A stretch of 64,000 bases of DNA, taken from the NCBI GenBank assembly GCA_964016885.1, contig OZ024743.1, forward strand, positions 109,058,001-109,122,000, read 5' to 3'. This document shows, one piece after another, positions 1,555-61,076 of the stretch (the first letter of the stretch is position 1; each line of letters starts with the position of its first letter). Origin of the DNA: Eledone cirrhosa (lineage: Eukaryota). Made by a program: the position numbers and the translations under genes. The notes beneath the pieces were generated by a model. That model ran no database searches. It was not told where the DNA came from and saw nothing but the letters and a program-made list of their open reading frames with translations.

Positions 1555-2633
1555 GCTACAATATCACATCCATTTGCAGGGCAACCGGAGATTATTAGTC
1601 AATAATCATCTCCATAATCGAAGGAATGATGTGATGAACATAAAATGAAACTGGATTTAGTTCAAAATGTGTCAACAATATAAAACAAAATAACGTTTCC
1701 ACTCCATGTTTAATTTTAGAAATAAATTATGAAAAATACTAGCTAATTGTATATATCTACTTTCTATATATATGACAATATTGATCTCCCTCTACATAAA
1801 ATTTATTCTATACATGCATATAACTCTAACGGAAAAAAACCTTCTAAATGCTTTTCAACTCTTTCCCTTATCGCTAACTAAACGATCTACCTTAATCTTA
1901 TAAAAAATAAAAAAAAACTTTAATAAACTCTACTGTAACCAATTCCTAGGTATAGCTAATTTTTCTAGAAAAAAAAAACACAAATAAACCTATAAACTGT
2001 CATGTTTGAAATAAACATTTATACAAGCATCTGCATATTATGCACATAATATGTCACTGCCTGCTGAAAAGTTCCATTTTTTGACACCTCACGCTAACTT
2101 GATATTGCTTTATGGTATATATTATGATTTTTTTTTTTTGAAGAGATACGGTTGAGATTGAGCAAACATTATGGAGATAATTGTTAAATAATTGTTTCTA
2201 CTTTTGGCACAATGCCAGCAATTATCACAGTGTATTACTGGTACTTTATTTTATCGACCCCATAAGGATGAAAAGCAAAGTTAACCTCGGCGGGATTTGA
2301 ACTCAGACCATAAAGGGCCGTAACTCTTTGCTGCAAAGCATGGCGTCCGACCCTCTGCCGATACTGCCAATCCACCAATATAATTGTTAAATAATTGTTT
2401 CTACTTTCGTACAAGGCCAGCAATAACCCAGTGCATTACTAGTACTTTATTTTATGGACCCCATAATGATGAAAGGCAAAGTCAAGCTCGACGGGATTTG
2501 AACTCAGACCTTAAAGGGACGTAACTATGCTGGAAAACATGGCGTCCGACCCTCTACCGATACTGCCAATCCACCACCCTTATAATTGTAAAATAATAAT
2601 CTCCAGTTGCAAATGGATGTGATATCCTAGCTG
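1555..2633. mobile_element. Putative MITE/fold-back with ~60-bp inverted arms; the right arm is split by two SINEs
   Basis: 1555-1618 (gctacaatatcacatccatttgca...ggagattatt...atctccataat) is the reverse complement of 2168-2182 joined to 2590-2633 once the SINEs are removed. Confidence 0.55.
2190..2580 (-). mobile_element. Two tandem copies of the ~190-bp tRNA-derived SINE (family A)
   Basis: The minus strand has an A-box-like TGGCAGTATCGG, B-box GAGTTCAAATCC, core ctttcatccttacggggtcgataaaataaagtaccagt and tail ggccttgtgccaaaagtagaaacaatt (consensus). Confidence 0.92.
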
Positions 2634-14639: not shown

Positions 14640-15140
14640 TTTCCTCCTCGAATCTACATGTCCAGACACTTGGCTAATGGCTGCCACTCTCAACCACCTT
14701 TAAACAAACTGTTTGGGAGGCAGCATATCCCTCTCCACTCTGATTTTCCTTTTCATGTGAAATCTGAAATAGTTATTCAGTGTTTCCCCGAAGAGAAAAG
14801 TGCTTGTCTTCCATCCTTTCAAACTTGTTCACCCCACGATCTATCTTGCCATGGCCACCAGGCAGACAAAATTATTGCTAATCCAGATCCACCCTACACG
14901 TGGCAGCAGCTGTTCGACATAGACCCACAAAAAAAACATTACTCAGACATTCGAACAGAGCATGCAGGGGACAGTTTCGGCAAACTGCGTGTATCTCGAA
15001 CAGGCCCGCCTGATGGCATTTCCATGGCTGTAGTATTCATCTCGAACAGGAAATCCGCTCTGGTAGCACAGCCAGGCCAGGATTTCAGAAAGTTATCCAA
15101 GGGCCCTGGAATGAAAGTTCTCCGGAAAGCATTTGGAAGT
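14640..15140 (-). pseudogene. Old Tx1-clade LINE 3' ORF2 fragment
   Basis: Aligns by eye with 41540-42040 (ctgattttccttttca.atgaaat, gccatggccaccaggcaga, ggtagcac.gccaggccagga). Confidence 0.8.
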
Positions 15141-15252
15141 TGATTATATCGATAATAATGTTTTGTGCATTGAGCTTCTCTGTCCTAGGTGTCGAGATGG
15201 CACACGTTAAAAATAGAAGGAAAACTGAAGGAAGAAGAAAAAACACAAATAA

Positions 15253-19009: not shown

Positions 19010-19538
19010 ATTCATATCCCGCCAAGGTTAGCTTTACCTTTCCTTATTATGTGTTCGATACAATAAAGTACCAGTAACGCACAGGGGTCGATATAATCTT
19101 CCCAGAAATTGTTGGGCATGTGCCTGAATGAGAAAACATTATTAAATATAAAGTTGGATTGGCAGTATCGGTAGAGGGTATGATGCCATCCTTTGCCATT
19201 CTGTGTTCAAATCCCGCCGAGGTTATTTTTTCCTTTCATCCAGACGGGTTCGATAAAATAAAGTACCAGTAATGCACTGGGTAATTGCTGGCCTTGTGCC
19301 AAAAGTAGAAACAATTATTAAATATAAAGACGGATTGGCGGTGGATTGGCAGTATCGGTAGTGGGTCGGACGCCATGCTTTGACACATAGACTTACGGCC
19401 CTTGCCATTCTGAATTCCAATCCTGCCGAAGTTAACTTTGCTTTCATCCTTACGGAGTCGATAAAATAAAATACCAGTAATGCACTGGGTAATTGCTGGC
19501 CTTGTGCTAAAAGTAGAAACAATTATTAAATATAAAGT
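19010..19538 (+). mobile_element. Three tandem SINE family A copies, each followed by attattaaatataaag
   Basis: Copies at ~19010-19140, 19156-19316 and 19336-19523. Confidence 0.88.
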
Positions 19539-22709: not shown

Positions 22710-23010
22710 GATTCGGTGATGACCATGGTTTGGCAAGCAGAAAGTTCCCTTCCGAGGGACAGATTCAGGCTAGTCTGTTTGTTGCGATCCAGCAGTTATC
22801 CATATTTAGCGATCTCAGCTCTCGCCGCAATGTTTACCAAAACATTGCTAGAGTACTCACTGAATAACAGTAATGTGTGCACTCTGAATGTTAGGATGTA
22901 ATTTCACCCCGCAAGCTTATTATCGCATTGAGTGAGTGGGTCATATACATACATATATATACACATACATGAGTGAGTAGGTCATATATATATATATATA
23001 TACATATATA

Positions 23011-23604
23011 TGGTGGCTGCCAACTCGTTTTCGAGTACGGCCACTACTTTATATCCATGTAGGAGAACCCCTACCGATGCGTTGAACGAGTGTGTCTTTT
23101 TAGTCCAGCCAGCGACTTGAACACTCTGGTACAAACACTACACTTGTGACAACTATTGACACATAGTGCTGGGCCCATGGTACCATGTGACGAGAAGTGC
23201 AGAGAGATCTCCATATATAAAGCAATGCCTGTGTCGTGAAGCTTTCATAGTGAGCAAAGGTACTGCACAAAGCCAGTGCCACTCTCTTAACCAAGACGAT
23301 ATTTACCAAAAAGAAGAACAAGTCGACATCATTGGATACCATCAGGGTTGCAGTGTTATTTCAGAGTTTTCCTTCTCCTCGAATTCTGCCTTGAAAAAGG
23401 CTAAGGGGTCATCTCTCCTGGTGATTTTGGATGGCCATTGACTCTTAAGAGCTCCTTTTCCCTTTGACAGGTTTTGTTGTTAGTCCTGCAAGATGTCCAA
23501 AGTCACCCTCCTCACCAATAATCCTTGGTGGGGTTACCAGTTTAGTCGCCAACGACCCGACCATGAGACAGGTTGTACAGGGATACATGTTACCAGTAGC
23601 ACAT
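23011..23604 (-). mobile_element. Non-autonomous RTE-derived element (~590 bp)
   Basis: The minus strand carries the RTE 5'-UTR-type motif aggagaaggaaaactctga. No RT coding sequence. Ends at a (TATG)/(TA) tail. Confidence 0.55.
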
Positions 23605-23684
23605 ATATACATATATATATACACATACATACATACATACATACAGACTTACACACATATATGTATGTATGTATGATGACTCCT

Positions 23685-24134
23685 TAGCCTTGGTCCGGGA
23701 GAGATGACCCCTTAGCATTTGTCCGGGAGAGATGACCCCTTAGCCTTTGTCAAGGCAGAATTCTAGGAGAAGGAAAACTTTGATATAACACCTGCAACCC
23801 TGATGGCATCCAATGATGTTGACTTGTTCTTCTTTTTGGTAAATATTATCTTGGTTAAGAGAGTGAGACTGGCTTTGTGCAGTGCCTTTGCTCACTATAA
23901 AAGCTTCACGGCACAGGCATTGCTTTATATCTGGAGATCTCTCTGCACTTGTCGTCACATGGTACCATGTGCCCAGCACTATGTGTCAATAATTGTCACA
24001 AGTGTAGTGTTTGTACCAGAGTTTTCAAGTCGCTGGCTGGACTAAAAAGTCACAATTGTTCAGCGCATCGTTAAAAGTTCTCCTACATGGATATAAAGTA
24101 ATGGCCGTACTCGAAAACGAGTCGGCAGCCACCA
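23685..24134 (+). mobile_element. 5'-truncated second copy of the same element, inverted, with a (TATG)n tail
   Basis: Reverse complement of 23011-23420. Contains ctaggagaaggaaaactttga and is followed by (gtat)n. Confidence 0.7.
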
Positions 24135-25998
24135 TGTATGTATGTATGTATGTATGTGTGTATGTATGTTTGTATGTATGTATGTATGTATATGCGTATC
24201 TGTCTGTGTGCGTGTGCGGCGTGTCTTGATTTCGAATCTATTTTCCTCATTTTTGTTTCGTAATGTTTTATTTTTTCACACTTTCACTCTCTAATCATGT
24301 AAATCTGTCTTATACATTGTCAATACTGAAATTAACGTGATAAACTACTTAGTGATGTTACTGTGGTTATTTTTGTAAAGTTAATGTTACCTCTGTTATT
24401 TGTAGTAGTTTTGTTACAAGTGTTGGAACAGGTGAAGCAAGTAAAATATATATATATAAATTAAGATGAACATCGCTCACAAACTAGCGATATATTTTAA
24501 GTGAATAGTCATTTAAAGTTTGTTAAAGTTGTTAAAGATGATAAAGAAAGTTCATTTGAAATTCAGAATAGTAATTATTGTTAACAACGCCTTAGTTAAA
24601 AGAGAAATTCGGAAAGCAAAAGTGTACTAAGGCGTTTTAGCTAGGAGTGGTGTAGATAATTGCTTCTTTCTTCAGCTTTGTAATATTTACCATATTTCGA
24701 ATGAAAGATGTTGCTAAATATGTTGTCACAAATGTAGTAATATAACTAATTTTCTCGTTATTAAACTGCGTTTGGAAAGAAAGAATTCTTAGATAGAATT
24801 ATGATGTCAGTTCATTGACGGTAATTATGAATACTTTAACTTTTATGTGTCATAAAACACTCGATGGTTTCAGGTGAATTGGTATCGAATGAGTTCATAT
24901 AACCTGCTTCATTACAAACATTAGTGTCGAAGTATTCGATCCTGCGTCACATTCCACAGATAACTGAATTACGTGACATCTTCTCGTAATTCTCTAGCAG
25001 AATCTGTATTTAAATGCCTAGACAATTTAATTAAATATGCTACCCGTAATTTAAACTGAAATACAACAGGGTGACATTAAAAACCCCGCCAAGCGTTAAA
25101 TTTTGAATAACATTTAAATACGGTGTCCAGGCTTTCATAACAACATCCTGAACAATGCGGGGCAATACCAAAACACGTGAATAATACGCCATTATAGTAT
25201 TGTTTTCTGAGTCTAACAAAATGCTGTGTGGTATATCGTTTACGACTTTCTCGGTTTATTGTTCAAGTCCCGCCGATGTCAGCTTTACCTTTCATGCACC
25301 TGGGTCCATAAAATAAAGCTCCAGTTAAGAATTGGGGTGAAGATATTACGATATTCCCTTCAGTCAAATAAAACTCACTCCCACGCATAGACATAAGCAT
25401 TCGTTCATAATTACATATGTTTGCCTTTTCATTTACATAGGAATCCCTCTTTAAATTGATCTAGATATGAACATTTGATGCGAAACGTTGGATCACAAGT
25501 AGGGTGAGAGGATCATAAACAGATAAGACTATAGGTTACATGGTATTTGTTGGAATCATTCAAACACATTGAAAAAACTGACACTAGATTAGTATTGTAT
25601 TTTAACTATTAGGTAAAAATTAATTCCGAACCTTCTAAGGACAGGGCTTCTTTACTGCCACTTAGCGTGGTAGAAACAGCTGAATATTACTCAACAGAAT
25701 ACAACAGATACATCAAATAATCTAGATCTTAATATAATGTAAGAAAACATAGAGAGGATGGACTCGGCTGATTTGTTTGTTCTGTTTTTCCTCATAGATT
25801 TCTACGATAATGAATGGAGTCTGGTTAATTGAGGTAGTTTAAACCGAAGGAGAATCATAATCATTTAACAGTTATCCAATCAGTTATCTCATCTCTGTCT
25901 ACGCACACACATCTATCTGACTACCTATCTATCGGTATATCTGTATATGTGTATATTTGTCTATCCTTCACTCTACACACTCTCTTTCTCTCACTCTG

Positions 25999-30377: not shown

Positions 30378-31614
30378 AATAGGTATGTGTATTATATTTA
30401 ATATTTTATCTTTTAGTTCCTTCTGATTCCCATTCTAATCCATACTTCTCCCCTCTTCCTCATGCAACTTCTCCCCCACGGCCAGCCAAGCAGAGAAAAG
30501 GAAGATGAAGAAATACCGGGGATTACCCGACCACTTATCCTTCGCACCGGTCGTTGTCGTGTCATCAGGCATACTTGGATCCCGTACTGAGTAGCCCCAC
30601 CGCAAGTTCGGAACGTCAGCGGCCTTCGGAGGAAGGAATCTCGAGAGGTGGCTCTTGCAGCAGGTGTCGCTGGCAATTGTGTGTGGGAATGCTTTGCGGT
30701 CTTTACCGCCGATCCCTGAAGCCAGAGCTCAATCACTCTCTCCCTCCACTCTGCATTCTCCCTTGGCACTAGAGCCCTTGCCATACCCTTCTCTTTTCCC
30801 GTTTTGTAATATTTTCTCATTTTACATTCCATTCTTTCTTCTCATCCTGATTTGTTACTTTTCCTATTAAATTGTATTTACATAATATCTTTTTTTTACA
30901 TAGAATAAACATTTATTGGTTTCAAAAATAATCACCTACATCATCACTGTCTTTATTTTCACTGTTAGCTGTTGTGTTATCGTTAATTGTGACACCTCTA
31001 GATGTCGTCATATTGTACAGCAGTTGTCAGTAACATGAAAAATAAACTAACAAAATCAACAACAGTAATTGTTTGTACCATAGATCACATGGCCTGCTAT
31101 TTGAAGGGTAGGGTAAAGTAGATGCATTTATCCCGGTACGTTACTGGTATTTATTTTACCGACGGCTTACGGATGAGAGGCAAAGTTAAATTTGGCGTGT
31201 TTAAACACAATATGTATGTATATGCAGCAACCTTATGCTGCAAAACATGCTAATATCTCTACTGATACTGCCACATGTTAATATTAATCATGATCTCTTT
31301 ATTCACCGGAAATGTTTCACTTCAAGATCAACATTAAGAACGGCACAAGACAAAACATTACGTGTGTGTCTATTTTTGTATGTGTTTGTGTGTGTATTTG
31401 TGCGAGGCTATTGCCTGTAATCATGTTTAAATATAATAAGGGGAGGTAGCAATAATATATTCAACAGTAATTATTCTTAAATAGCTAGAAGACATCCAAT
31501 GTCTATTCGTCTAAAAAACACATACAACCATGGTTTCTCTTGCATATAGGCATAAGCCCACTCTCGGCTCTTTAGTTCCCATTTACAGGCGTATATTCAG
31601 AACAGGCCCATTCA

Positions 31615-31970
31615 GTCGTACTATTAGTGCTATTCTCGACCCTGGTTTAAAAAAAAAAAAAATTGGCTGGAAAGCAATACTTCATTTTCCACACTGATTT
31701 TCCTATTCAATGATACTTGAATAAGTTGATACGGGATTCTCCAAAGAGGGAGTATTTGTCTTCAACCCTTTCATACATGTCTCTCATATAATTTATTTCA
31801 CATAGCATATAAAAGCTGTTTGATCTTTCCGGTTAAAGGAAGGCGACGCGACGATTTTCACAATAGATTGAGTTGATAGTCGCATACGTTTTATTCGTCA
31901 CAGCTGATTGTCGACGCAAACCTAAAGATCACCAATGCACAAGGCACTGAACGAGTGCGTGCATGAAGGT
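31615..31970 (-). pseudogene. Very old Tx1-clade ORF2 3' fragment
   Basis: ctgattttcctattcaa, gtcttcaaccctttca and gacgagtgcgtgca-like blocks parallel 41545-41890. Confidence 0.6.
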
Positions 31971-32309
31971 TGGGCATGGGGAAATTCAATGACATTGATC
32001 ACAGTAGGTGAGAGGAAATTTATTTCTTCCAATCTAAAATATTGAAAGGCAAATTGATCTCGGTGAAATTTGATATCTGAAAGTAGCATTTCGTTAATGT
32101 CCCTACGATCTGTGTTAAAAATCCAATGAGGTCAAATTTGTCTGATATCGAAATATAAAGTGTCAGTCAAATGTTTAATTCGATATAATTATTTTTCCAG
32201 AGCACAAAAGTTGTTAGACTTGTATCTATATAGAAGTAAGAGAAAATAAAAAGAAATAAGAACAAGAAAAACAATATCGAAAACAATACAACATTCGAAA
32301 TAGTATTAT

Positions 32310-36978: not shown

Positions 36979-37029
<51 letters not shown>

Positions 37030-37203
37030 TGTTTCTACTTTAGGCACAAGGCCAGCAATTATCCAGTGCATTACTGGTACTTTATTTTATCGACCCCGTA
37101 AGGATGAAAGGCAAAGTCAACCTCGGCGGGATTTGAACTCAGATCGTAAAGGGACGTAACTATGCTGGAAAGCATGGCGTCCGACCCTCTACCGATACTG
37201 CCA
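36758..37203 (-). mobile_element. Two SINE family A copies separated by (TAA)n at 36979-37029
   Basis: Consensus matches. The 3' end of the second copy abuts the TAA run. Confidence 0.92.
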
Positions 37204-37310
37204 AAATAATAATAACAGTTATTAATGATTTCATTCTTAAGCCACGCAATGCTCACATTAAGGAACCACTCATGATAATAACAATTTAAAAAAAACAACA
37301 AAAAGAAAAC

Positions 37311-40300
37311 CCCGTGACCAAGAAATACCGGGATGGCGGCCGGCGGGGAATAGCCGTATCTCTAGGGGAGAACGACCCCTCTAGTCTTGGTTGACACTCG
37401 TTCTAGAAATGGTAACACAAAATGATTACCCCTTGGCGGATAAGGATAAAACGCGACAAAATAAAATAAATGTCTAATGATAAAATCTCATACCGGATCG
37501 GCCGTCACCCGGGTAAAAAAGGGCCGCGTCCCTCAGAGAGGAACCAGACTGGGGTCGAAAAATCAGCTAATGGTTCAAACATTCCCATCACTTCGGAGCT
37601 GGAGACCTCTCATAACCGGAATACTCCTACTGTTGGCCCTCCATGCTCACCACCAAGAAATCCAAAGAAAAAGAGAGAAAAATGGTCAAGGGAAGATAAT
37701 AAAGAAGTCCTTGAGGCTTTCTACACTGCCATGTACTAGCCATCAAATACATCGAATACAGAACAGACATATATCAACTGGAAAAAGAAACATCCCGAAA
37801 ACAGAGGCTATATTGACAGTAACAAACTAGCCAATATACGAAGAAATATTGTAAGAAAAAAGTTACTAACTGATATAGAAATTGATCAGATTAAGCTATT
37901 AGCACAAAGTCAGCGAAGGGAAAATGAAACATTTGTCAGTGAAAACGAGGTAAACTGTAACACTTCGAATCCCAGGGTTGGGGCGGAATCACTGGCAACA
38001 GAACAAATTAAAGAAAGGATCGAAAAAGTTGAGGGAGTGCATGCTCAGGATGAAACTCCAAATGAAAATAATGAGATCGTAAATGATAAAGAAATGAATG
38101 AGAATGAACTTGCCAATTTGAAGGATGAAATTATGATCGAATGGATGAAAATGAAAGAATCTGACATGGGGCAACGAGACACCCTCCCTAAGATCCAGAA
38201 CTCCAAACAGAACCAAAAGATAATACACAAGACTAACATAATTCTCAAAAACATTATCATCACAAACAAACTAAACATTACTGATTTAAATCATCTCTAT
38301 TATGCATCGGCTAAAGTCACCACTCACTTATGTGAAGTGAAGATGAAAAAACAAAGGAATTCCTACAAGAAATCTACTTGGCAAGAGAACATCAATCGCC
38401 AAATAAACCTTCTCCGATCTAACATAAAAATGTTAACAAACTATAAAGTAGGTGAACATGTTAAACAAACTAAACTTAGAAAATTGAAAAAAAAGTACAG
38501 TATAAAATCAACATGTGACATAGACATGCTGATAGAAATAATCAAGCAAAAAGTGTCGGCCAAAGCTGCTCGTATAAGGCGCTTTGAAAAACGATCTAGA
38601 TTCTATAAGGACAATAATATGTTCAAAAACAACCAAAGAAACTTCTACAGAAAAATTGGTAAGTCAACAATAACTGCTAAATCAATACCATCCAAGGAGG
38701 AAGTGCAAGAATTCTGGGAAAAGATCTGGGCCGAAGAAAAAGTTCATAACATACATGCCCCATGGATAGACAGACAAATGACAGATACAGCTCACCTTGA
38801 GGAACAAATATGAGAAAATATAACAGTTGAACAGTTGCGCTTGGCTCTAAGAATAACCAGCAAATGGAAATCCCCAGGAAAAGACAAAATACAAAACTTT
38901 TGGATAAATGCCTTCACAGAGTCTCATGAGCTGTTAGCCCAACTTTACAATGACATAGTTAAGGAGCTAGAAAAGATACCATCATGGCTAGTTAACGGCA
39001 TTACATTCCTGCTTCCGAAGAATGATGAGACAAAGAATCCCAAAAATTACAGACCGATAACTTGCTTGACCACAATGTATAAAATGTTAACATCAGTCCT
39101 AACTGAATACACATATGACCTATTTCCCATTGAGCAGAAAGGGTGTAAACGAGGCTCATATGGCTGTAAGGATCAGCTTCTGGTTAACAAAATGATACTG
39201 GAAGATTGTCATAATAGACACAAAAATCTATCGATTGCTTGGATAGATTATAAATAAGCATTCGATAGTTTGCCACACAGTTGGATTGAAAACTGTTTAG
39301 AGATTTTCAAAATATCCCCCGTTGTCGGGAGGTTTTTGTCATTCAGTATGAAGACATGGAAAACGACACTCCTTTTGAATAGTGAAACAAAATCACTGGA
39401 AGCTGGAGAAGTTAATATTAATTGTGGAATTTTTCAGGGTGACTCTTTATCACCGCTTTTATTCTGCATCGCACTTATACCATTAAGTAAAATGCTCAAT
39501 GAAACAAAACATGGATATCAAGTCTATGACAAAACCATTAATCACCTGTTCTACATGGATGACCTGAAACTATTTGAAAAAAAAGATGAACAATTGCAAG
39601 GGCTATTATCCACTGTGGAGCAGTTCAGTGATGACATTAAAATGGAGTTTGGACTAGATAATTGCGCCAAAGCAACGTTCACCAGAGGAAAGCTGCTGAA
39701 GAGTTCAGACATTAATCTTGATCGGGGGAACGTGATGAGAGAACTTGATCAAGAAAAAACTTACAAATATCTAGGTGTTTGTGAAGGAGACGGAATCACG
39801 CACTCGACAATGAGGGAAAGAATGAGGAAGGAATGTTACCGCAGAGTAAGAGCAATCTTAAACGGAATTGAATGCAAGGAATAGGATCGATGCCATAAAC
39901 ACGCTTGCCATACCAGTAGTAACCTACAGTTACAATGTCATCAACTGGTCAAGCACAGAGATCCGTATGCTCGATACAAAAATTCGAAAATTCTTAACCA
40001 TGCACAGAATGCATCACCCTAAGGCAGATATAGATAGAATATATCTCCCTAGGAAAGAAGGAGGACGTGGGTTAATCCAGTTAGACATTGCGTTCAAAAC
40101 TGCAACAATTGGATTATCTACATATCTAAGGGAATCACATGATTGGATGATCAAACTCGTTTTGAAACACGAAAGCATCAAAAGATCATACTACATTACA
40201 AAATATGCACAAAGATACAGTAATGGACTACAAATTTCAGAATTCCCATTTACTGCTGAAATGGAAAACACAGAAAAAGCAAAGCAGGTAATTAGCTGCA

Positions 40301-41232
40301 AAGAAAGAACTGCTAGAGAATCTGGCTAAGAAATGGCAAGAAAAGCCTCTGAATGGAAAATACCCAGAAAGAGCTAACAGTCCTGATGTTGACAAAACTT
40401 TAACCCATCAGTGGTTGGCATCCTCTGGACTGAAATCGGAGACTGAAGGACTGGTTATATCAGCACAAGATCAGTGTCTGCCAACAAAAAATTACCAAGC
40501 CAACATAATAAAAAAATGGATGCAACCCATTATGCCGTGTATGTAAAAAACAACCAGAGCCCATTGATCATATAATTTCAATGTGCAGTCCTATAACTCC
40601 AACCGAATACCCAAACATGCATGACAGAGCTGCACAATACATACATTGGATAATGTGTAAGCATTTTGACCTGCCCCATCAAAAGAATTGGTGGGAGCAT
40701 CAACCACCTCCCATACTTGAAAAAGATCACATCTCAATCTTGTGGAACTTTAGCATCCAAACAGACCGAAAAATAGATGCAAATAGACCTGATATAATAC
40801 TGAAGGTCTTTAAAAAGAGGGTATGCCTGCTAATTGATGTGTCCGTTCCAATAGACAAGAATGTATCTATAAACACATTTGAAAAATTGAGCTAGTATAA
40901 GGACCTGGAGAAAAAATGTGGAAATTGAGAACTAAAACAATACCAGCGGTTGTAGGCGCTCTAGGAATGATACCTAAGGGTCTAATGATTACTTATCGCA
41001 AATCCCAGGAAATCCGCGTATAGGAGAAATACAAAAGATAGTACTAATGGGAACTGCCCATATACTAAGGATGATTCTGTCAATATAAGTACATCAAAAG
41101 TCTAAACACCTAAATATGCATGTGTGTGTATATACGTTCTTTCGTGGACATGGCGAACTTTGTTGTCTCTTGATGTCACTGGTTGTGACTTGGTGATAAC
41201 TCGTATGAACATAAAGCAAGATAAATGAATCT
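37311..41232 (+). mobile_element. Near-full-length R4/Dong-clade non-LTR retrotransposon (single ORF: RT, CCHC, restriction-like endonuclease)
   Basis: N-terminal KWSREDNKEVLEAFY. RT motifs KSPGKD, PKNYRPITCL, EQKGC, WIDYK*AFDS, GIFQGDSLSPLLF, HLFYMDDLKL. Zn knuckle CRVCKKQPEPIDHIISMC. RLE motif RPDII...LIDVSVP. The 3' end is joined to (TAA)n. Confidence 0.93.
37470..41088 (+). pseudogene. Disrupted R4/Dong polyprotein ORF
   Basis: In-frame stops at ~37739, 38813, 39257 and 40895, and frameshifts near 39870, 40300 and 40515. Confidence 0.9.
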
Positions 41233-41502
41233 ATAATAATAATAATAATAATAATAATGTTTTCTTTATTAACCACAAGGGTTCACATAAAGTAGACATT
41301 AAGGACAGTACAGGACAATACAGGACGGTACAAATGGGCATTTCTGCGTGTAAAAAAAACAGAGGTTGAAATAAAATAACAAAGAAAAATTCCCCAATAG
41401 GAGGGAGACTTCCAAGGGACATTTGTGGAGAAAGCCCATTAAAAGACCACAGTGGCCCTGAGCACCAGGACAAGTGCCCTCTCCCAGTTTTCCACCTTTA
41501 AT

Positions 41503-44500
41503 TTACAGACACATACTCAGAGAAGGCCCATTCATTCGGGCCATACTTGCTTCTCTCACCCATCTTTCAACAAAATGCTGGGAAGAGAGCACTTCCCTCT
41601 CTACCCTGATTTTCCTTTTCAAATGAAATTTGAAAAAGTTAATCAGGCCATCACCGAAGAGGTAAGTGCTCGTCTTCAGCCCTTTCAAACGTGTCCACCA
41701 TACTATCTCTTTCGCCATGGCCACCAGGCAGATAAAAACTGCCTGCCCTTCCAGGCTAAAGGAAGGGGGCGGGGCGATCCTCACGATGGACTCAGCTGAT
41801 AGCTGGATCCGTCCTACACGTGACAGCAGGTGTTCGACATAAACCCACAAGTCAGCAATGCTCGGACACTGGACGAGTGCGTGCAGGACGGTTTCGTCGC
41901 CCTGCGCGCATCTCGGACATGCCCGGCTGACGGCACCTCCATGCCTGTAGAGTTTATCCCGAACTGGCAAAGCTCCTCGGTAGCACTGCCAGGCCAGGGA
42001 TTTCTGGAAGTTGTCCATAGGCCCCGGCCCGAAAGTCCTTCCGAAGAGATTGGCTAGTTGATTTTCGTCGACGCCTAGAGATTCTCCAAGTACGTCGTCG
42101 CTCTTCCCCTCCACTAATCCCCTATAGAACGCCAAGGTGGAGTTTCCACCGATCACATTGCCCAATTGGTCGAGGGCTGTGAGCGCCTGAAGACATTCCA
42201 GTCTCCAAGCGCTCCCTCTCGGTCTTCGCTTGACCCAGGACTGCAGCTCCGTCAAGGAGACGAGCTGGGGAAAAACGTGTCTTGCAAATGGCGACCACAC
42301 CTGATCACCGTCGAGGAAGAGGTGGAGATGTCGTAGCCTGAGCGCGTGTCTGCGCATCATCAGCCACGGCATGCCCAGCCCTCCACGTAGCGGGTGTTGA
42401 CAGCAGATGGACCGCCTGACCATCGGAGCGCGTCGCTTCCACAAGAAGCGAAAGAGCAAACGCTCCAGCGCAGTCAGGCGGGGCTTAGGACAAGGTACGA
42501 CGGTCAGGCGGTACTAGATGACGGATGCGATGTACGCATTCGCCACCTCCGCTCGACCTTTCAGGGATAGCTTCCTCTCGGCCCATTTCTGGGTGAGAGA
42601 AGCCACCCTGCTCGTCACCTCGTCCCAGTTTTTGTCCGTCTGGAGGTCTGGACCGAACCAGACCCCTAGCAATTTAACCGGTCCATCCGTCCAGCGCCCG
42701 ACGACGCTGTTGGACGGCATGGACCTGCCTCTCCAGGTGCCGAGCTGCAGGCCCACTGACTTTTCCTGGTTGATCATTGCTCCTGTCACCGCTTCGTATT
42801 CTCTTAGTGTAGTGCCGATCGCCTCGATGTGTTTGGCGTTCGACACCACTACGGTGACATCGTCGGCATATGCTGACACGGATCTTCCGCATCCTAGTTC
42901 GCGCGGGACCCCCCTCAACGTCTCCAGTTTGTGCAGTAATGGCTCGAGAGTCAATACGTACAATAGGGACGAGAGGGGACATCCTTGGCGGACCGAGCGC
43001 ATGATGTTGAACGGTTCCGAAAGGTGACCGTTCACTCTCACTACAGAGCAGATGTTGCTGTGCATGGCAGCGATCCAGCCTCTGAAGACGGGCCCAAAGC
43101 CAGCCGCACTCAGGACTGCCGCTAGGTAACGATGGTCGACCCTATCGAAGGCTTTCGACTGATCTAAATTGATCAAAGACCCACCCGTGCCAGGTTGCCT
43201 AGCTACCCTCTCTACGATGTATCGCATGAGGTGGAGGTTGTCGTGGATGGATCTGTCGGGAATGGCGCATGTCTGTGCCTCTCCCACAGACCACCAACGA
43301 CTAGCGCCAACCTCTTTGCTAGCACCTTGGCCAAAATCTTGAACTCTGTGTTTAGCAGAGTTATGGGCCTAAAATTATATATGTTATCCCCCTTGTTCGG
43401 ATCCTTTCTCAGCAGCGCCACCGCTCCTCGGCTCACAGAGCTGGGAATTCTCCCGTTCTGTTGCCAGTTGCAGTAGACGTCCGCCAAGTGGCCTCCGAAC
43501 AAGTTTGGCATTTGTACGTAAAGTTCATAGGGCAGACCAACCAAACCAGGTGATTTACCCCTTGTGCAACTAGTCATTGCATCCCGTACTTCAGCGGTTG
43601 TTATCGGCTTTTCGCAACACTCCGCCTCAGTGGCCGAAAGCCGCGGCAGTCCGTCGAGGTAGACACTAAAGTCCAAACCTCGATCCGGCCCGCCACTGCC
43701 CCCGAACAGTTGAGCGAAGTGTCGCTGAAAAGCTTCACACATTTGCCCGGGATCGAGTAGCATGCGCCCGTCGTGGTCCACCAAAGACCGGATCGTGGCT
43801 TTGTTGCCACGACGCGCCTCCGCCACTCGGGCCCATTGAACGGCATTCGTCCCCTCGTCTCTGAGAGCACCCACCCTAGCTCTGACAACGCAGCCTTCGT
43901 GCTTTGCATTGAAGAATTGGTCAAGGGCCAATTTCGCCGCAAGTACGTCGGTCGCGATGCCTTTGCTAAGCGCCTCATCTAATTTTCTAACTAATTCTCC
44001 CTCTGCTCTATTTTTCTCTATTGCTAAAGTCTTACTAAACCTAATGGACTCTATTCTAATTGCTCTTTTCAGAGCAAACCACCACTTGTTGTTGACGATG
44101 GCCCCCGTCAACGCCCGCTTAACTAGTTCGTTAATCCGGTCTCTATAGGCCTTGCGCGCTGGTAAGGACGCGTTTAGCTTCCAGTAGCCGGATCCTCGTC
44201 TATGAAGCCTATCTAAGTCAAGCACACAGATCACGAATTTGTGGTCCGTGTAGCTGACTATCTTGAATTGTGGACAGCCTATGCTAGACCTATCAATTTC
44301 CCTACAAAATACTCTATCTAGATATGATATGGATGACCCTATGCGATTTGTCCAAGTCCACATTGGTACATTCGGGAAATCCATTCGGTACCTGTCAGAC
44401 AGTTCAAAACGTCTGGGCAGGTTGGTGAGACTCTTGCACCCTCCTTCCCTATCCACTAATCCCACACATTCCCAGCGTGCATCTAAGATCCCGTTCCAGT

Positions 44501-44919
44501 CGCCCACTAACACTAAAGAGTGGGACGTTCCAAGAAAGGTCTCCAGACGCCGGAAGAAATCAGGACGCCCTGCTCCTGTCGGGGCATAGACGGCCACTAA
44601 CCTGAAAGATGCCCGTCTCCGCTGGTCACGTCCAGCACCACCAACTTACCTTCTGGGTCCAGGAAGATGGCCCGTATGGCAAAATCCAAACCTCTCCGAA
44701 AAAGCACAACAACTCCTCCCCCGATCCCGGACGGCTGGGAGATGCGTACACATCGTAGCCGCCGAAGATCGGTGCGAAAGCCTGTGCTTCGGAGATTCTG
44801 GTCTCGCTGATGGCCACTACATCTATGTTTAGTGACCTGAGGTTGTTGAGCAGGTGGCCCTGCTTCCATGACGACCCCAAGCCACGCGCATTTATGCTGC
44901 CTATTCTGAGTGAGGTCAT
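41503..44919 (-). pseudogene. Tx1 ORF2 (APE endonuclease, RT, zf-RVT) with several frameshifts and stops
   Basis: MTSLRIGSINARGL, ISET, VYAP, VGDWN, YLDR, TDH, GYWKLN, NFRPITLLNTEFKILAK, LDQSKAFDRV, VRQGCPLS, AYADDV, CPRCAQGDETVLHALVQC. Confidence 0.93.
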
Positions 44920-44953
44920 GTTGAAAAGGAGTAGAAAAGATGGGAAAGACCAC

Positions 44954-46937
44954 TTACCTTACTTCTCGTAGGGGAAGGATGGTTTTTCCATCCTTTTCAC
45001 TGCTTGTGGCCTCCTCAGGAAGGATGTCCTTATAAATCCTCCTGGAGAGTGCTTGTCGGAAGTCTCCGATGTCTTTGGGGAATTTTTGTTTTAGTGTCAT
45101 GTACGTTTTCTGTGTGATGCGAGTGATTTGTATGTGTGGAGGTGTTGTGAATTTTGGGGTTGTTGTGTAGTCTTTTTCTGTGATGCTGGTGTTGTGTTGG
45201 ATGTAGTGTAATAATTGCTTGTTGTTCAAATTTAATGCTGTGTAGTGTGTATCGTTTTGGTTGTTTTGTTTTGTTTGCGTTTGTTGTGGGTTTGTTTCTG
45301 TTTCGCATTTTGGTGACTTTTGTGGTGTAGGTGATGGTGGTGTTGGGGTTAATGATGGTGATGGTGTTGGTGTTTGGGTTGATGGGGTTGGTGATGCTGG
45401 TGTGGATGGTGGTATATCTGTCCTAACTTTTTTATTTCTTAATTTATTTGTTTCCCTCTGTATTTTGTTTTTGGAGGGGGAAGGAAGAGAATTTTTTCTT
45501 TTTTGGTTTCTTTTTTTTTCCGGATATCGTTTCCCACTCCTCGTCGTCACAATCTGTCTCCAGTTGTGATAGGCCGGGGAGTGGAAAATCCTCCACAGGC
45601 GTTAGTTTTGGTTGTGGCGTGGTGGATGGTGTATGCGCTGGTGCTAGTTCTGAAGCGTTGGGTGGTGGTGGTGTTGGTTTTGCTGGTGGTGGTGGTGGTG
45701 TTGGTTTTGCTACTGTTGCTGGGGTTGTTGCTGTTATAGTTGCTTCTGTTGTTGCTGCTACAGTTGTTGCTGCCATCTCTGCTACTGGTGGTGTTGATGG
45801 TTGTGTCACTGGGGTGGGTAGGAGAGGTGGCCTCAACCTTTTAGCCTGAGGGCAGAAAGCCCTTAGGTGGGTTCCTTCACCACAAACGACACACCTAGGT
45901 CTTCTGCCCTCGACAATTACCGTGAGGTGGCTGCCGTCAGTGAGGTCTATTACCTCTGGGATCTCCTCAATGCTTTTTTTGGTCCGCTTGGTTCAGATCC
46001 GGACCAGTTCTCCTGCTTTTCTTTTGCTATTGCTATTATGTTTGTGATGGCTTCGATGCCGGCGAGGACGGCCGCTATTAGCCAGGGAATTTAGATGGCC
46101 GGTGGAACGTGGGTCACCCTGATCTTTACCAGTCTCTGGCCACAATAGCTTGGGACGAGTGTGAAGTCGTCACATCTTAATGGGGCCATGGAGTGTTCTC
46201 TAGCCTCCTCTGGTGTTTCAAAGAACACGTCCACGGTTCCATACTTCTGCCCACGTCTGATGTGGGTTTTTCTTGCCCACACATGTCCCAAAGCTTTTTG
46301 GATTTGGGACTCGGATGCCCGTTCCACTCGGCGCGATTTTACATTTATCGTTCGATACGATACGGTGCATAGGCGCCGATGCTCCATTTTATTAGGTGGG
46401 GGAGGGAGGGGGGGAGGCTGATCCTGTACCCATCTTTCTTTACCATTTGTTTGGCATTTTCTAAATCCTCCTGAGTTACCGTAAATGCTTCGAACTGTTT
46501 TGCTACTCTGACAAAACTGAGGGTCGTTTTTATAATGTCATTTTTGTTGTTGTTGCTATCGTTATTTGTGATAATATTAATTTTAGTTTCAGTTGTGGTG
46601 GTGACGTCAGTCGTCTTTGGTGGGGAAGAGTCCATTTTGCTTGATTTCAATTCGACATCACGAGTTAATTTATTATTTTCTTCTTTTGTTTCTGTTGTCG
46701 CGGTGGTGGTGGGGGTGGTGGTTGTCGTGGTGGTGGTGGTGGAGTAGGCTTTAACACATGCAGTCATTGGTAATGGCGGGAAATGAATGTCTGCCTGAGA
46801 CAAATTTAAAATATTGCTACTGCTTATATTTTTTTTGTGTTGGCAAACGTAGTAACATTTACAATGGTGGTGTCGGTGTGAGGTGTTAATTTGTGAGGAA
46901 AGCTTTCAGCTGCTTGGTGCAGAGGTGAATTAGCCAT
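44954..46937 (-). pseudogene. Tx1 ORF1 (gag-like), frameshifted
   Basis: Probable ATG at 46937 (MANSPLHQ...). Thr-rich N-terminus, an RRM-like block (GTVDVFFETPEEA), CX2CX4HX4C knuckle CVVCGEGTHLRAFC at ~45852-45893, and a Pro/Thr-rich, basic C-terminus. Confidence 0.82.
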
Positions 46938-47145
46938 TTTTTTTCAAAGAAATTTTTTGATAATAATAAAAGTTTAAATTTTGGGCACAAGGCCCCAATC
47001 TTTTTGGGTGTCCTTTTCGGAAAACAATGTATGTGCGCTTATATATGGTTAACAATAAAATTTTCCATAAATGGCAATTTTTAACAAACGGAAATAACAA
47101 ACCTTTGCGGAGCTCACGATGATACGATTTACTACGTAGGTCGCC

Positions 47146-47210
<65 letters not shown>

Positions 47211-47220
47211 TAATAATAAT
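47146..47220. repeat. (TAA)n microsatellite
   Basis: Directly visible. Confidence 0.98.
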
Positions 47221-47816
47221 CCGAGTGTAAACACCTAGCCCAGACCCACTATAAGGGCTGGAGACATGATGTGATGGGCAGGGTGATCCACTGGCACCTG
47301 TGCAAAGTAAACAATTTACCACATTCTGAGAAATGGTATGAGCATAAGCCAGAGGCGGTGATGGAGAACGATCAGGTGAAGGTGCTGTGGGATTTTAGGA
47401 TACAGACGGACAAGAAACTGGAACACAATAGACCTGACCTTGTGGACAAAGAAAAAGATCGTGTCTGATTGTGGATGTGGCCTGCCCATTCGACACGAGA
47501 GTGCAAGAGAAGGAGAGGGAGAAAATTAACCGATACCAGGACTTAAAGTGGGGGGTAAAAAGGATTTGGAACTGCCATTAAGTCAAAGTGATCCCGATTG
47601 TCATAGGCGCATTGGAGACTATCTCCAAAGGTTTCCAGGGATGGTTAAAGAAAATTGGCCCCTTCACGCTTTTTGGAACGCTTCAAAAGGCATGCTTGCT
47701 GGGAACAGCAAGAACCCTCCGAACGTCCTGAATATCTGAGGCTGCAGGTAGTGGCTTGATATTCATTCCAACGGACTTTCCAGTTGACTAACATCAATGA
47801 CTGAGATTCAAGGACT
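47221..47816 (+). mobile_element. 5'-truncated second R4/Dong-like family (RLE domain and 3' UTR) ending in (TAA)n
   Basis: HDVMGRVIHWHLC...WYEHKPEAVMENDQVKVLWDFRIQTDKKLEHNRPDL...VDVACPFD. Homologous to 40620-41080 but clearly diverged from it. Confidence 0.88.
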
Positions 47817-48231
47817 AATAATAATAATAATAATAATTTGTGTTGTTATTTAATCCGGAGCTTTGTAGTTATACAAGAGATATTTGCAGACATGTGGACA
47901 CCGTGAGAAGATTTCATATCTTGAATTTTGGCAATCACTATTACGCAATAGCGATGTTCAACTCGAACATATTTTCCAGACCTTTGCAGTTATCTCCCTT
48001 ACACCTTCCGCCCGTGGCCTTGTATCACTTGGGTTAAGTGACCGTTTCTGCGCATGCGCGTTCATACGGTTGTTCTTCCTGTTCCTTATAACCATGATCA
48101 GTACGAGCTGAAGGTCCGCTAAGATGAAACAATTGTTCTTCGTTTCGTGATCTAACTGTTGTGTTGCCATTTCTACCTTACTCGTCCCATGGACTGAGTG
48201 TTCTACCACTACGGATATTATCTTCCACTGT

Positions 48232-53400: not shown

Positions 53401-55410
53401 CAGAGGTATCCACAGTAAGTTGTGGGGTCCATTCTGAATGAAGAACTCGATGTAATCCATATGTTAAAAATGTTGGAGGTTAAAATAAATCCCGGAAAAC
53501 AATTAAACATTAGCAGAAAAACAGAGTCATGATATAAGTTAAAACAATGTAATAAAAACATCAAGTCATTAGAGATATACTTCACTGCTTTACGATCGTT
53601 TCTAGGTGATGATAATACATTGTAGCTATACTCCGTTATAGTATTGGTTGAAGTATTGTATTATTGGTTGAAGTATTGTATTATTTTCCCTTTTAAAATC
53701 TGTATTCCTATTTAATTTATGTTGGGGTGGTGTAGTCATATTATTTTTAAGTTTATAAATATTGTAGTTGCTTAATTTTTGCCAACCATAATCTACAGTA
53801 TGTACATTCACGATTTAACCACCCTGGCTCTATACTCAAGAACGTAGTATATAACATATCTCTTAGACTTTCTAAATTATCTTCCACTGAAGATATATTT
53901 TATAATAATGCACCCTTCTACAACGAGGCCCTAACTAGAAGTGGATATAAAGAAAAAATCTCATATAGCCCCAACACTAAATATAAAACCTAGCAAAAAC
54001 TAAAAACACCAAAACATACCATTGAAACAAATAACTAAATTGGTTATTCCTGATACACCAAACAACCGAAAAACCACAACAAATATTACTACACGATCTA
54101 TGACCAATGTTATCAACTCACATATATGAAACCAAGCATTCAAAATCTCATAATCTACACAATTATAACACCAAATATAACCATGGTAATTTACCAAATT
54201 CCACAAATAAGGATACTAAGCATAGGAATTATTCTAGAACACAACACAATAATATAAGTGGTAATAAGAACTTAACTAAAAAACCGCAAAAGAAACATTA
54301 GATGGTACAACGCACCCTTCAACCTGCAAACTATTGGATAAATACCCCCACAATTAGTTGAAATTCTACATAAACATTTTCCACCGAACCACAGATACCA
54401 CCAAATATTTAATAAATATACTGTTAAATTCCCATACTCTACATCAAAAATCCCCAGCAAAAAATAAGAAACTACAACATTTATAAACTTAAAACTAATA
54501 TGACTACACCACCGCAACATCATTTAAATAGCACTGCACCTTTTAAAAAGGCAAATAATACAATCCTTCAACCTAGAAAACACAACCACACAAATCACCA
54601 ACACAAAAACAACAGAACACAAAATCACAATAAAACCTAGCACCAAACCACCCACAAAGCAACCTTCATTCTCCTGCTAACATTAATTACAATAGGAATA
54701 GCTCAAGAATTAATGAGAATAGTATAGGCACCACCAACAACCATCTTACGTATGGTTGTAATTGCAGAAATAGAAGCATCTGCCTCTTAAATGGCAACTG
54801 TTTGATTAATAATGTAATATATAAATGCACTGTGTCTACTACAGACTCCAAAAAAGCATATATAGGATCTACATCAAGCACATTTAAGAAAGGATTTTAC
54901 GCACACTCTAGTAGTTTCAACAATACTAAACTAGCTAACACCACATCTTTAGCTGAAGCGGTAAATCATTATAAAAGGAAAAAAATAGATTTTAGTTATC
55001 ATGGAACACCATTCTACAAGGAACTCCATATCTTAGAAATAGGAGGGAATGCAGATTATGTTCAGGGGAGATATTGTAAATTACTAAATCTAAGGACGAT
55101 TTATTAAATAAAAGGTAGGAACTGATCATAGTTTGTAATCACCGTATACGAAGAACATTTAAATACTATAAACCTAATTAAATATTCTAAAAAGCAACTC
55201 ACTATAATTCTATATATACATTTATTAGTACCCCTTTCCCCTAATTATATGCATTCATTTTTACCTTTTAATGTTTTAGCTTCCTTATGTTTATGCGTTA
55301 ATGACTAAAGGCAACAAGGCACACAACCACCCATGAGAAAAATGTATATCTATGTATGATATGGAAATATATTTATGTGTGTGTATATATATATATATAT
55401 TTATATATGT

Positions 55411-59655: not shown

Positions 59656-60688
59656 CGTTATAAAATATTGTGTCCTTGAGAATAATTTGGAAATATATGA
59701 AATTAGGTACTGCAGAAGATATAACAATCTAAATTAGCTAGATGTTACATGATTTGAAGATTCATATGTTCGTCGATATGATAAATTATCTCTTCTTCTA
59801 CACATCCGAAGATGTGCATTTGTGGCTTAATACCATGTGAATTATAAATTGTAACAGCTTGTTTCACTGTTTATATGTATAAAATGATTCATATCCATAG
59901 AAACAATAGTTGAGATTAAAGATGAATCCGATTTAACAACCTTGGTTCATTCGGTATTAAATGTTAATTCTCACCGTCTTCAACTGTGTGTATCTTAACC
60001 TTTAGTTATACTATGATTTCTCCTTCCTATTGATCATAAGTGCGCATTGAGTTTTACACACCGTACCAAAAATTATAGTGGATTTCTCCACTATAATTAC
60101 TTGTTTATATTTTTCTCGCGACAAGCTGAAAGAATTGGGGCCCAGAACCTAACGAAACGTGAGTACCTGTTTCTGTCACTAGTGTAATTATATATATATA
60201 TATATATATTATGGACGCATACTTTACTGTGTTTACATCTACACATATTAATATTATAATGCTCAGTATTTATACTTTGAGCTTCGTATCAATATCAGTT
60301 AATAACTCTATATTTTATTTCTATTTCCGCTCCCTATTTGCTGAGCTTATAAAATGAGTGTAATTGGGCATAACCACTCGCACCACGTATAGCTTTCAAC
60401 ACACAAGGTATCAACTTCCGTCAGTTTCTTGTTACATGTGTTTTGTGTCATTCAATCTAATCTCTCGCTGAAGGATTATTTGTTACAAACACACTTTTTT
60501 CAGGGCGAAACAGATTAAATCTTTAGTCTGTCCGAGAGATGAAATCGTTATTGATATGGTATGTATAAGAAATCTTGTACCCTACTGTATGTTTCAGTTT
60601 AAATATATAACAAATTTGTGGTGAAATCTACCCACGTAATTTTAGACGCAGAATTTACTATGTTTACTTCTACACATATTAATATTAT

Positions 60689-61076
60689 AATTGTTTCTAG
60701 GTTTGGCACAAGGCCAGCAATTCACCAGTACATTACTGGTACTTTATTTTATCGACCCCGTAAGGATGAAAGGAAAAGTTAACCTCGGTGGGATTTGAAC
60801 TCAGAATAACAAGGGCCGTAACTCTATGCGTCAAAGCATGGTGTCCGACCCTCTACCGATACTGCCAATCCACCACCCTTTATTAATATTATAATTGTTT
60901 CTACTCTATGCACAAGGCCAGCAATTACCCAGTGCATTACTGGTACTTTATTTTATCGAGCCCGTAAGGATGAAAGGCAAAGTCAACCTCGGCGGGATTT
61001 GAACTCAGATCGTAAAGGGACGTAACTATGCTGGAAAGCATGGCGTCCGACCCTCTACCGATACTGCCAATCCACC
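60689..61076 (-). mobile_element. Two tandem SINE family A copies delimited by three attaatattataat units
   Basis: Units at ~60678, 60882 and 61081. Confidence 0.93.

What the first reader, a model, noticed from the sequence alone, without database searches (positions are those of the whole stretch)
41233..41300. Tx1 LINE 3' terminus mirrors the SINE tail: candidate Tx1-SINE partnership aimed at (TTA)n
Seen: in sense orientation the Tx1 ends ...cCCTTGTG gttaataa AGAAAACA ttattatt, and SINE family A ends ...ggCCTTGTG ccaaaagt AGAAACA attatt. The two blocks and their spacing match, and both join TTA-type sequence in the same polarity (compare 37021-37052 with 41251-41280). Established: SINEs often borrow the 3' end of their partner LINE, but this is classically described for CR1, L2 and RTE, whereas L1-group elements are usually 'relaxed' and poly(A)-dependent. 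Inference: this Tx1 lineage may be the stringent, microsatellite-targeting driver of the dominant SINE. The shared stretch is short (~15 matching nt), so chance is not excluded.
Basis: partly seen in the sequence, partly recalled or inferred. Interest (0 to 1): 0.75.

Follow-up and report, generated by a model that had tools for sequence, protein, structure and literature searches.

The report
Tx1 LINEs and SINE share tail
A group of long jumping genes that insert into short-repeat DNA ends in the same 24-letter signal, a predicted tiny RNA hairpin, as this genome's very common short repeat, so the short repeat likely borrows their copying enzyme, although it lands on any ATTAT site rather than in long ATT runs.

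Summary
The match is real but weaker and broader than stated. 41259-47136 (-) is a full-length, broken copy of a young L1/Tx1-type LINE family inserted into (ATT)n. Its last 24 bases (stem-CTTGT-stem, AATAAA, GAAAnC) are 83-100% conserved across sister families whose upstream 3' UTRs mostly diverge, including families that target (TATC)n. The SINE tail matches them at 14-17 of 24 positions in register (Tx1b/b2 10-13 because of a one-base insertion), with compensated stem pairs around the same loop. The window's own family matches only at borderline level; sisters match better; nine other LINE ends do not. Both element types begin their target duplication at ATTAT. 'Aimed at (TTA)n' fails for the SINE: 11,515 of 150,743 tails (7.6%) run into (ATT)4, equal to background (8.1%), against 9,820 of 16,510 (59.5%) for Tx1. 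Best reading (0.6): the ATT-type Tx1 group likely mobilises the SINE through a stringent 3' hairpin; this copy cannot be the driver. My searches found tail-sharing L1-group pairs in print only for plants and algae. The scan noted this idea before, in this and other genomes. No functional test exists.

The parts
41259..47136 (-). Full-length (5,878 bp) L1/Tx1-type LINE, here 'Tx1a'; young family, this copy broken
   Evidence: Ends fixed by 30+30 genomic copies; 3' part 98-99% identical among copies, 1,955 candidates; RT and zf-RVT
41271..41283 (-). Predicted 3' hairpin: AACC stem, CTTGT loop (41275-41279), GGTT stem
   Evidence: Coordinates; in the predicted fold of this tail; covariation across families and SINE
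41259..41270 (-). AATAAA (41265-41270) and terminal GAAAAC; no poly(A) in genomic copies
   Evidence: Sequence; conserved in sister families
41233..41258 (.). (ATT)8/(TAA) run: 3' target of the Tx1 and tail of the Dong-like element
47137..47220 (.). (ATT)n run at the 5' junction of the Tx1
41503..44958 (-). ORF2 (APE endonuclease, RT, C-terminal zinc motif), three frame changes and one in-frame stop
   Evidence: Four tblastn pieces against a near-intact sister ORF2; ORFs; Pfam
44959..46937 (-). ORF1 region, broken; first ATG at 46937
   Evidence: no Pfam hit for the piece tested
46960..47000 (-). 5' UTR hairpin with SINE-type stem (GGC-CTTGT-GCC) followed by ATT units
   Evidence: Present in all 29 anchored 5' ends; best match to the SINE tail, score 31; sister families have palindromes at the same place
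37030..37203 (-). SINE, short form, head slightly truncated; tail loop at 37046-37050
   Evidence: 150,743 exact tails in the genome
36763..36975 (-). SINE, long older form
37215..41232 (+). R4/Dong-like LINE (RT, CCHC knuckle, restriction-like nuclease motif), broken, (TAA)n tail in opposite polarity; provides the run the Tx1 sits in
   Evidence: clade name from recalled motifs
47221..47818 (+). 3' piece of a second Dong-like family between (AAT)n runs
   Evidence: Sequence; same end seen reversed after Tx1 tails in L009, L015, L020

Best explanation
The ATT-targeting Tx1-type LINEs of this genome end in a shared 24-base signal, and their ORF2 protein likely binds its predicted hairpin and likely also copies the SINE, which carries the same loop on a compensated stem. 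Shown: the shared tail, its conservation, a target duplication starting at ATTAT in both, long (ATT)n targets for the LINE only. Inferred: the endonuclease nicks the strand opposite ATTAT; ORF2p holds the RNA by the CUUGU hairpin and starts copying 12-13 bases past the stem, where the RNA pairs with the nicked DNA. Inferred: the LINE transcript is cut downstream of AAUAAA, inside flanking ATT repeats, so it offers a long (AUU)n stretch and favours long runs; the Pol III SINE RNA offers only AUUAU and takes any ATTAT. The driver is the group (sisters b and c match best and one has a near-intact 1,150-aa ORF2), not this broken copy.
For: Last 24 bases 83-100% identical among six Tx1 ends while the 40 bases before are 42-68% (one close pair 90%). 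SINE matches 14-17 of 24 ungapped; sisters score 25-27, nine non-Tx1 LINE ends 7-18. Inner three pairs: SINE 98, 99, 97 of 102 paired, Tx1 86, 85, 85 of 87; pair 2 is C-G in Tx1, G-C in SINE; pair 3 is A-T in Tx1a, G-C in the others. Covariation 0.483 vs 0.196 shuffled, slid controls 0.28 or less. 42 of 50 unselected SINE ends continue ATTAT; 14 of 32 full-length SINEs have a junction-anchored 10-23 bp duplication (permuted mean 1.8), ATTAT lies in 18 of 32 5' flanks against 4.4% background. Tx1 duplications read by eye at imperfect runs are about 12-18 bp (L029, L140, L005). The CR1-type ATT-tailed LINE brings its own tail and has no ATT run at most truncated 5' ends. Both are young (SINE nearest neighbours up to 98.9%; Tx1 98-99%). 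Of 197 SINE-type stem-loops in 1.49 Mb, none lay at the end of another LINE.
Against: The shared stretch is only 24 bases and identity stops upstream (28-52%). The stem is 3-4 pairs; the SINE's predicted fold does not contain it and z-scores are -0.15 to -1.9; the fourth pair is T-T in 44 of 102 SINE tails; only two clean independent compensations, and the structure was picked by eye after reading earlier notes. Logos differ after position 5 (7.6% vs 59.5%). No Tx1 has the SINE's stem order at its 3' end (7 hits, all SINEs). TATC-targeting sisters carry the same tail, yet only 25 SINE tails meet (TATC)3, which needs the extra pairing assumption. The LINE survey is incomplete (150 of 118,943 RT candidates scored). 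Nin/Deu-type SINEs in print pair with CR1/L2.
Confidence: 0.6

Rival explanations
1. The true partner is an unsampled or extinct CR1/L2-type LINE; the Tx1 likeness is convergence or an old borrowing with no present role.
For: Deu/Nin SINEs listed in print use CR1/L2 tails; a congener-type genome is reported to hold 13 recently active CR1 families and I saw four; insertion logos differ.
Against: Four CR1-type, one Nimb/I-like, two RTE and two Dong ends score 7-18; no orphan SINE tail on a LINE in 1.49 Mb enriched for LINEs; the SINE is young and abundant, so its driver should be alive; target-derived ATTAT fits Tx1, not the ATT-tailed CR1.
Confidence: 0.2
2. Tx1 does move the SINE, but in relaxed mode through AUUAU pairing with the nicked target; the conserved LINE tail is a cleavage/polyadenylation context and the hairpin is not read by ORF2p.
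For: AATAAA is half of the conserved block and the SINE lacks it; the hairpin is weak.
Against: A Pol III SINE has no use for a polyadenylation context, yet keeps loop, closing pair and spacing; the short form deletes the region just upstream and keeps these bases; pairs are compensated.
Confidence: 0.12
3. One reading: this Tx1a lineage is the stringent driver and the SINE is targeted to (TTA)n.
For: Tx1a is young and abundant; its 5' UTR holds the best SINE-tail match.
Against: Weakest 3' match among the Tx1 ends tested; the most microsatellite-bound group (46 of 56 GGTT-type tails among the first 100 listed, counted by eye) while the SINE is at background.
Confidence: 0.08

Closest known systems
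Stringent L2 pairs (UnaL2/UnaSINE; ZfL2-1, ZfL2-2; PMC4176376, passages)
   Same: 3' stem-loop with family-specific loop, exchangeable stem, followed by short repeats; SINE shares the tail.
   Different: L2 clade, tested by assay; longer stems and longer shared tails. Here L1/Tx1 type, 3-4 bp stem, 24 shared bases, ATTAT from the target, no assay.
Maize LINE1-1_ZM/ZmSINE2,3 and Chlamydomonas L1-1_CR/SINEX-3 (PMC3472496 passages; PMC3747384 passages and Table 1)
   Same: L1-clade LINE with conserved 3' end, hairpin with compensatory changes, shared with a tRNA SINE.
   Different: Plants and algae; no microsatellite targeting reported in what I read; Table 1 lists no animal L1/Tx1 pair.
SINEU / Tx1-Mar of crocodilians (PMC4494074, passages and section 16)
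   Same: A SINE assigned to Tx1 machinery; weaker target preference in some SINE families (13-23%) than in others; SINE-like sequence at Tx1 5' ends.
   Different: Assigned by shared target, not by tail (no LINE matched the SINEU-1 3' half); poly(A) ends; snRNA heads; target is a Mariner.
Kibi, Koshi and crocodilian (TTCC)n/(TTTC)n Tx1 families (as described in PMC4494074)
   Same: Tx1 families inserted into microsatellites.
   Different: Targets here are (ATT)n and (TATC)n; relationship by RT tree not tested.
Octopus L1-Tx1, Dong-R4, tRNA-Deu repeats (PMC13282606 part 1 of 3 plus word search; PMC8967140 passages)
   Same: Same repeat classes, recently active; suggests an octopod host (inference).
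   Different: 'partner' and 'tail' do not occur in PMC13282606; no pairing or target is described in the passages read.

Membership tests
L1 group LINE | APE endonuclease + RT + C-terminal zinc motif in ORF2, ORF1 upstream | tested here: met
   Pfam RVT_1, zf-RVT; sister ORF2 best matches human L1 ORF2p over residues 14-864, E 1e-56, R2 1e-21
Tx1 clade | RT groups with named Tx1 references | not testable with these tools
   No named references; 64 homologs were all unnamed. Name rests on L1-group build plus target specificity
Microsatellite-targeting Tx1 (Kibi/Koshi type) | Over 20% of flanks in one microsatellite, also at truncated 5' ends | tested here: met
   59.5% genome-wide; 29 of 30 full-length 5' ends (one not anchored); truncated copies L005, L017, L025, L076
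Microsatellite-targeted SINE | Enrichment in long (ATT)n | tested here: not met
   7.6% vs 8.1% of all ATTAT sites; (ATT)3 near 4 of 32 heads
Stringent SINE/LINE pair | Shared 3' terminal sequence | tested here: met
   14-17 of 24, sisters beyond genomic and shuffle nulls; short compared with known pairs
Stringent SINE/LINE pair | Conserved 3' stem-loop with compensatory changes | tested here: inconclusive
   Covariation above controls but two clean events, 3-4 pairs, absent from the SINE's predicted fold
Stringent SINE/LINE pair | Same insertion signature | tested here: inconclusive
   Same ATTAT start and similar duplication length; differ in run length
Stringent SINE/LINE pair | Overlapping activity | tested here: met
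   Both have 98-99% identical copies; so does the CR1-type rival, so it does not discriminate
Stringent SINE/LINE pair | Tail needed for retrotransposition and bound by ORF2p | not testable with these tools
   Needs assay
tRNA-derived Nin/Deu SINE | tRNA-like head with A/B boxes and Nin/Deu body | tested here: inconclusive
   A- and B-box-like motifs seen by eye; ARAGORN none, Rfam nothing relevant; Nin/Deu label is recalled, not from a call

The most novel reading that the evidence does not exclude
An animal L1/Tx1 lineage is a stringent retrotransposon: its ORF2p reads a CUUGU pentaloop hairpin, drives a SINE with over 150,000 copies, and sets target choice in two layers (endonuclease nick at a short motif, then RNA-tail pairing that decides between long microsatellites and lone ATTAT sites), with a second copy of the hairpin in the 5' UTR.
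Probability: 0.35. Interest if true: 0.72.

Novelty: new variant of a known kind. Interest (0 to 1): 0.52.

Why it matters
Ohshima proposed that L1-group elements were ancestrally stringent and relaxed in mammals and most plants, but the pairs listed are plant and algal only. A young animal Tx1 group with near-intact ORF2, a minimal natural variant series of the tail and a partner SINE would make that testable in one assay, would name the engine of a dominant SINE in this (likely octopod) genome, and offers sister enzymes with different microsatellite targets on one RNA signal. It changes no general mechanism: TPRT and tail borrowing are known.

Tried and rejected
Dong-like host as partner: opposite polarity, scores 7 and 10. 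RTE, four CR1-type and one Nimb/I-like ends: scores 7-18; the highest, 18 for CR1-D, is reached by 19 of 1,843 nulls and ends on another repeat. A Tx1 with SINE-type stem plus AATAAA: 7 hits, all SINEs. A relaxed-target Tx1 family: the GGCT-type tails that lacked (ATT)4 (11 of 12) proved to be TATC/TC-targeting sisters. A free-standing 5' UTR unit ending at its hairpin: 0 exact-pattern hits. SINE at (TATC)3: 25 hits, most through ATTAT. Junction logos were conditioned on ATTA by my filter and were redone without it; the duplication test requires the first bases to agree, so '14 of 14 start A?TTAT' is partly built in. The tree is the quick version, 67 of 90 rows kept (near-identical Tx1a loci dropped), midpoint root only. 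No RNA holder listed; no reads laid. Rfam and ARAGORN blank. Paper searches; none described an octopus Tx1-SINE pair; Repbase, SINEBase, subscription papers and supplements were not seen and may hold it.

Full report
Setting. The window is G000:C4:109058001-109122000 in a 3.0-Gb assembly. The repeat mix (Dong-like, L1/Tx1-like, RTE, CR1, a very common tRNA-type SINE) resembles that reported for Octopus, so an octopod host is likely; this is inference.

Anatomy. The LINE runs 47136 to 41259 on the minus strand. All 30 best hits to its 3' part (one is the window) end at the same base and 29 run into an ATT microsatellite. 29 of 30 best hits to its 5' part start at the same base after an ATT run; one was not anchored by my script. 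Truncated copies also have ATT at the 5' junction, so the run is a target, not only a tail. 7 of 30 copies have another Tx1 just downstream and 7 of 30 just upstream. ORF2 has RT and zf-RVT; a near-intact 1,150-aa sister ORF2 (L131) best matches human L1 ORF2p. The window copy has three frame changes and a stop in ORF2. It sits in the (TAA)n tail of a Dong-like element of opposite polarity.

The shared tail. Sister families found through zf-RVT and long-ORF loci end in the same way: last 24 bases 83-100% identical, the preceding UTR mostly 40-68%. This holds for ATT-targeting families and for TATC-targeting ones. The SINE matches 14-17 of 24 ungapped (10-13 for the two families with one extra base) and nothing upstream. 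In an end-anchored score, the window's tail gets 19 (15 of 1,843 genomic nulls, 108 of 1,000 shuffles), sisters 25-27 (0-1 of 1,843; 0-9 of 1,000), a TATC sister 22, and nine non-Tx1 ends 7-18. So the resemblance is real for the group and borderline for this family.

Hairpin. Prompted by earlier notes of the scan (unchecked leads), I tested a stem around CTTGT. The inner three pairs hold in 97-99 of 102 SINE tails and 85-86 of 87 Tx1 tails; pair 2 flips C-G to G-C between Tx1 and SINE, pair 3 flips G-C to A-T in Tx1a with a G-T intermediate in L067. On 16 chosen tails 87.5% of cells pair, covariation 0.483 against 0.196 shuffled and at most 0.28 slid; RNAalifold finds the three inner pairs unaided. 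Against: rows are related, there are two clean events, pair 4 is often broken, and the SINE's own predicted fold lacks the hairpin while three Tx1 tails have it.

Targets. Genome-wide exact counts: SINE tails 150,743, of which 11,515 (7.6%) run into (ATT)4; Tx1-group tails 16,510, of which 9,820 (59.5%) (the total includes TATC families). Any ATTAT site starts (ATT)4 in 147 of 1,808 cases (8.1%) in 40 evenly spaced 10-kb stretches. Yet 42 of 50 unselected SINE ends continue ATTAT, 14 of 32 full-length copies show a 10-23 bp duplication anchored there (permuted mean 1.8, max 5), and ATTAT lies in 18 of 32 5' flanks against 4.4%. The SINE thus shares the nick motif with ATT-type Tx1 but not the taste for long runs. 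The CR1-type LINE that also ends in (ATT)n carries its own tail and mostly lacks ATT at truncated 5' ends. In the endonuclease hairpin loop known to affect L1 target choice (PMC1950540, passages), ATT families read NR(I/M)GS and the TATC-side copies NRSG(T/S/Q) or close variants; this is a correlation only.

Search for a better partner. Endonuclease and RT family searches gave CR1-type, Nimb/I-like and, from random stretches, RTE ends; clade names are from recalled motifs. None matches. Of 197 SINE-type stem-loops in 1.49 Mb, 156 had a SINE body, 34 were the Tx1a 5' UTR, and 7 were truncated or old SINE pieces. The survey is not complete.

Mechanism and odds. Most likely (0.6) ATT-type Tx1 ORF2p binds the hairpin on either RNA, nicks opposite ATTAT and primes where the RNA pairs with the target; long AUU read-through on the LINE RNA would explain the microsatellite bias that the SINE lacks (untested).

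Known and new. Tail-sharing with a stem-loop is the classic stringent mode (PMC4176376, passages). L1-clade cases in PMC3747384 Table 1 and PMC3472496 are plant and algal. Tx1-driven SINEs and microsatellite-targeting Tx1 are known (PMC4494074), but by target, not tail. PMC4758252, PMC4824008, PMC5786205, PMC11481361, PMC5804259 and PMC8967140 were seen as passages and name no such pair; Ohshima and Okada 1994 was seen only as a reference. Six searches found none. Verdict: a new variant of a known kind, computationally supported, functionally untested; noted before by this scan in this and other genomes.

Noticed in passing
window 46960-47000 (-); L131, L027, L013, L247 5' UTRs: Each Tx1 family looked at has a palindrome shortly before ORF1; in Tx1a it has the SINE's stem order and loop and is followed by ATT units, the best SINE-tail match found (score 31). 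It could be a captured SINE end, the source of the SINE tail, or a second ORF2p site; no free-standing unit found.
   Followed up: partly
L238-L249, L071, L072: Young Tx1 sister families with the same tail target (TATC)n or (TC)n and differ in the endonuclease hairpin loop.
   Followed up: partly
L208-L237, L200, L201: Young CR1-type LINE (945-957 aa ORF) with its own (ATT)n tail and a 3' stem-loop; some truncated copies seem to have 35-45 bp duplications (L233, L217).
   Followed up: partly
L050, L056, L070: A Dong-like subfamily carries a SINE tail fragment just before its 5' end, probably carried along from a flank.
   Followed up: no
window 2188-2570, 19159-19526, 60687-61070; L083, L094: SINEs often stand in head-to-tail pairs separated by one target duplication; several Tx1 tails join directly into a SINE head (L104, L105, L252, L253).
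   Followed up: no
window 14687-15145 and 31581-31971 (-): Old Tx1-like ORF2 fragments, 68-79% identical to Tx1a.
   Followed up: no
window 54634-55107 (-): 157-aa frame that looks like a GIY-YIG endonuclease piece of a Penelope-like element (by eye).
   Followed up: no
window 22990-24155: 364-bp inverted repeat, 92% complementary, with many copies elsewhere (L062, L069, L096): DNA-transposon or MITE-like.
   Followed up: no
L089, L098: Two of 40 evenly spaced stretches are wholly tandem satellite, about 69% alike.
   Followed up: no
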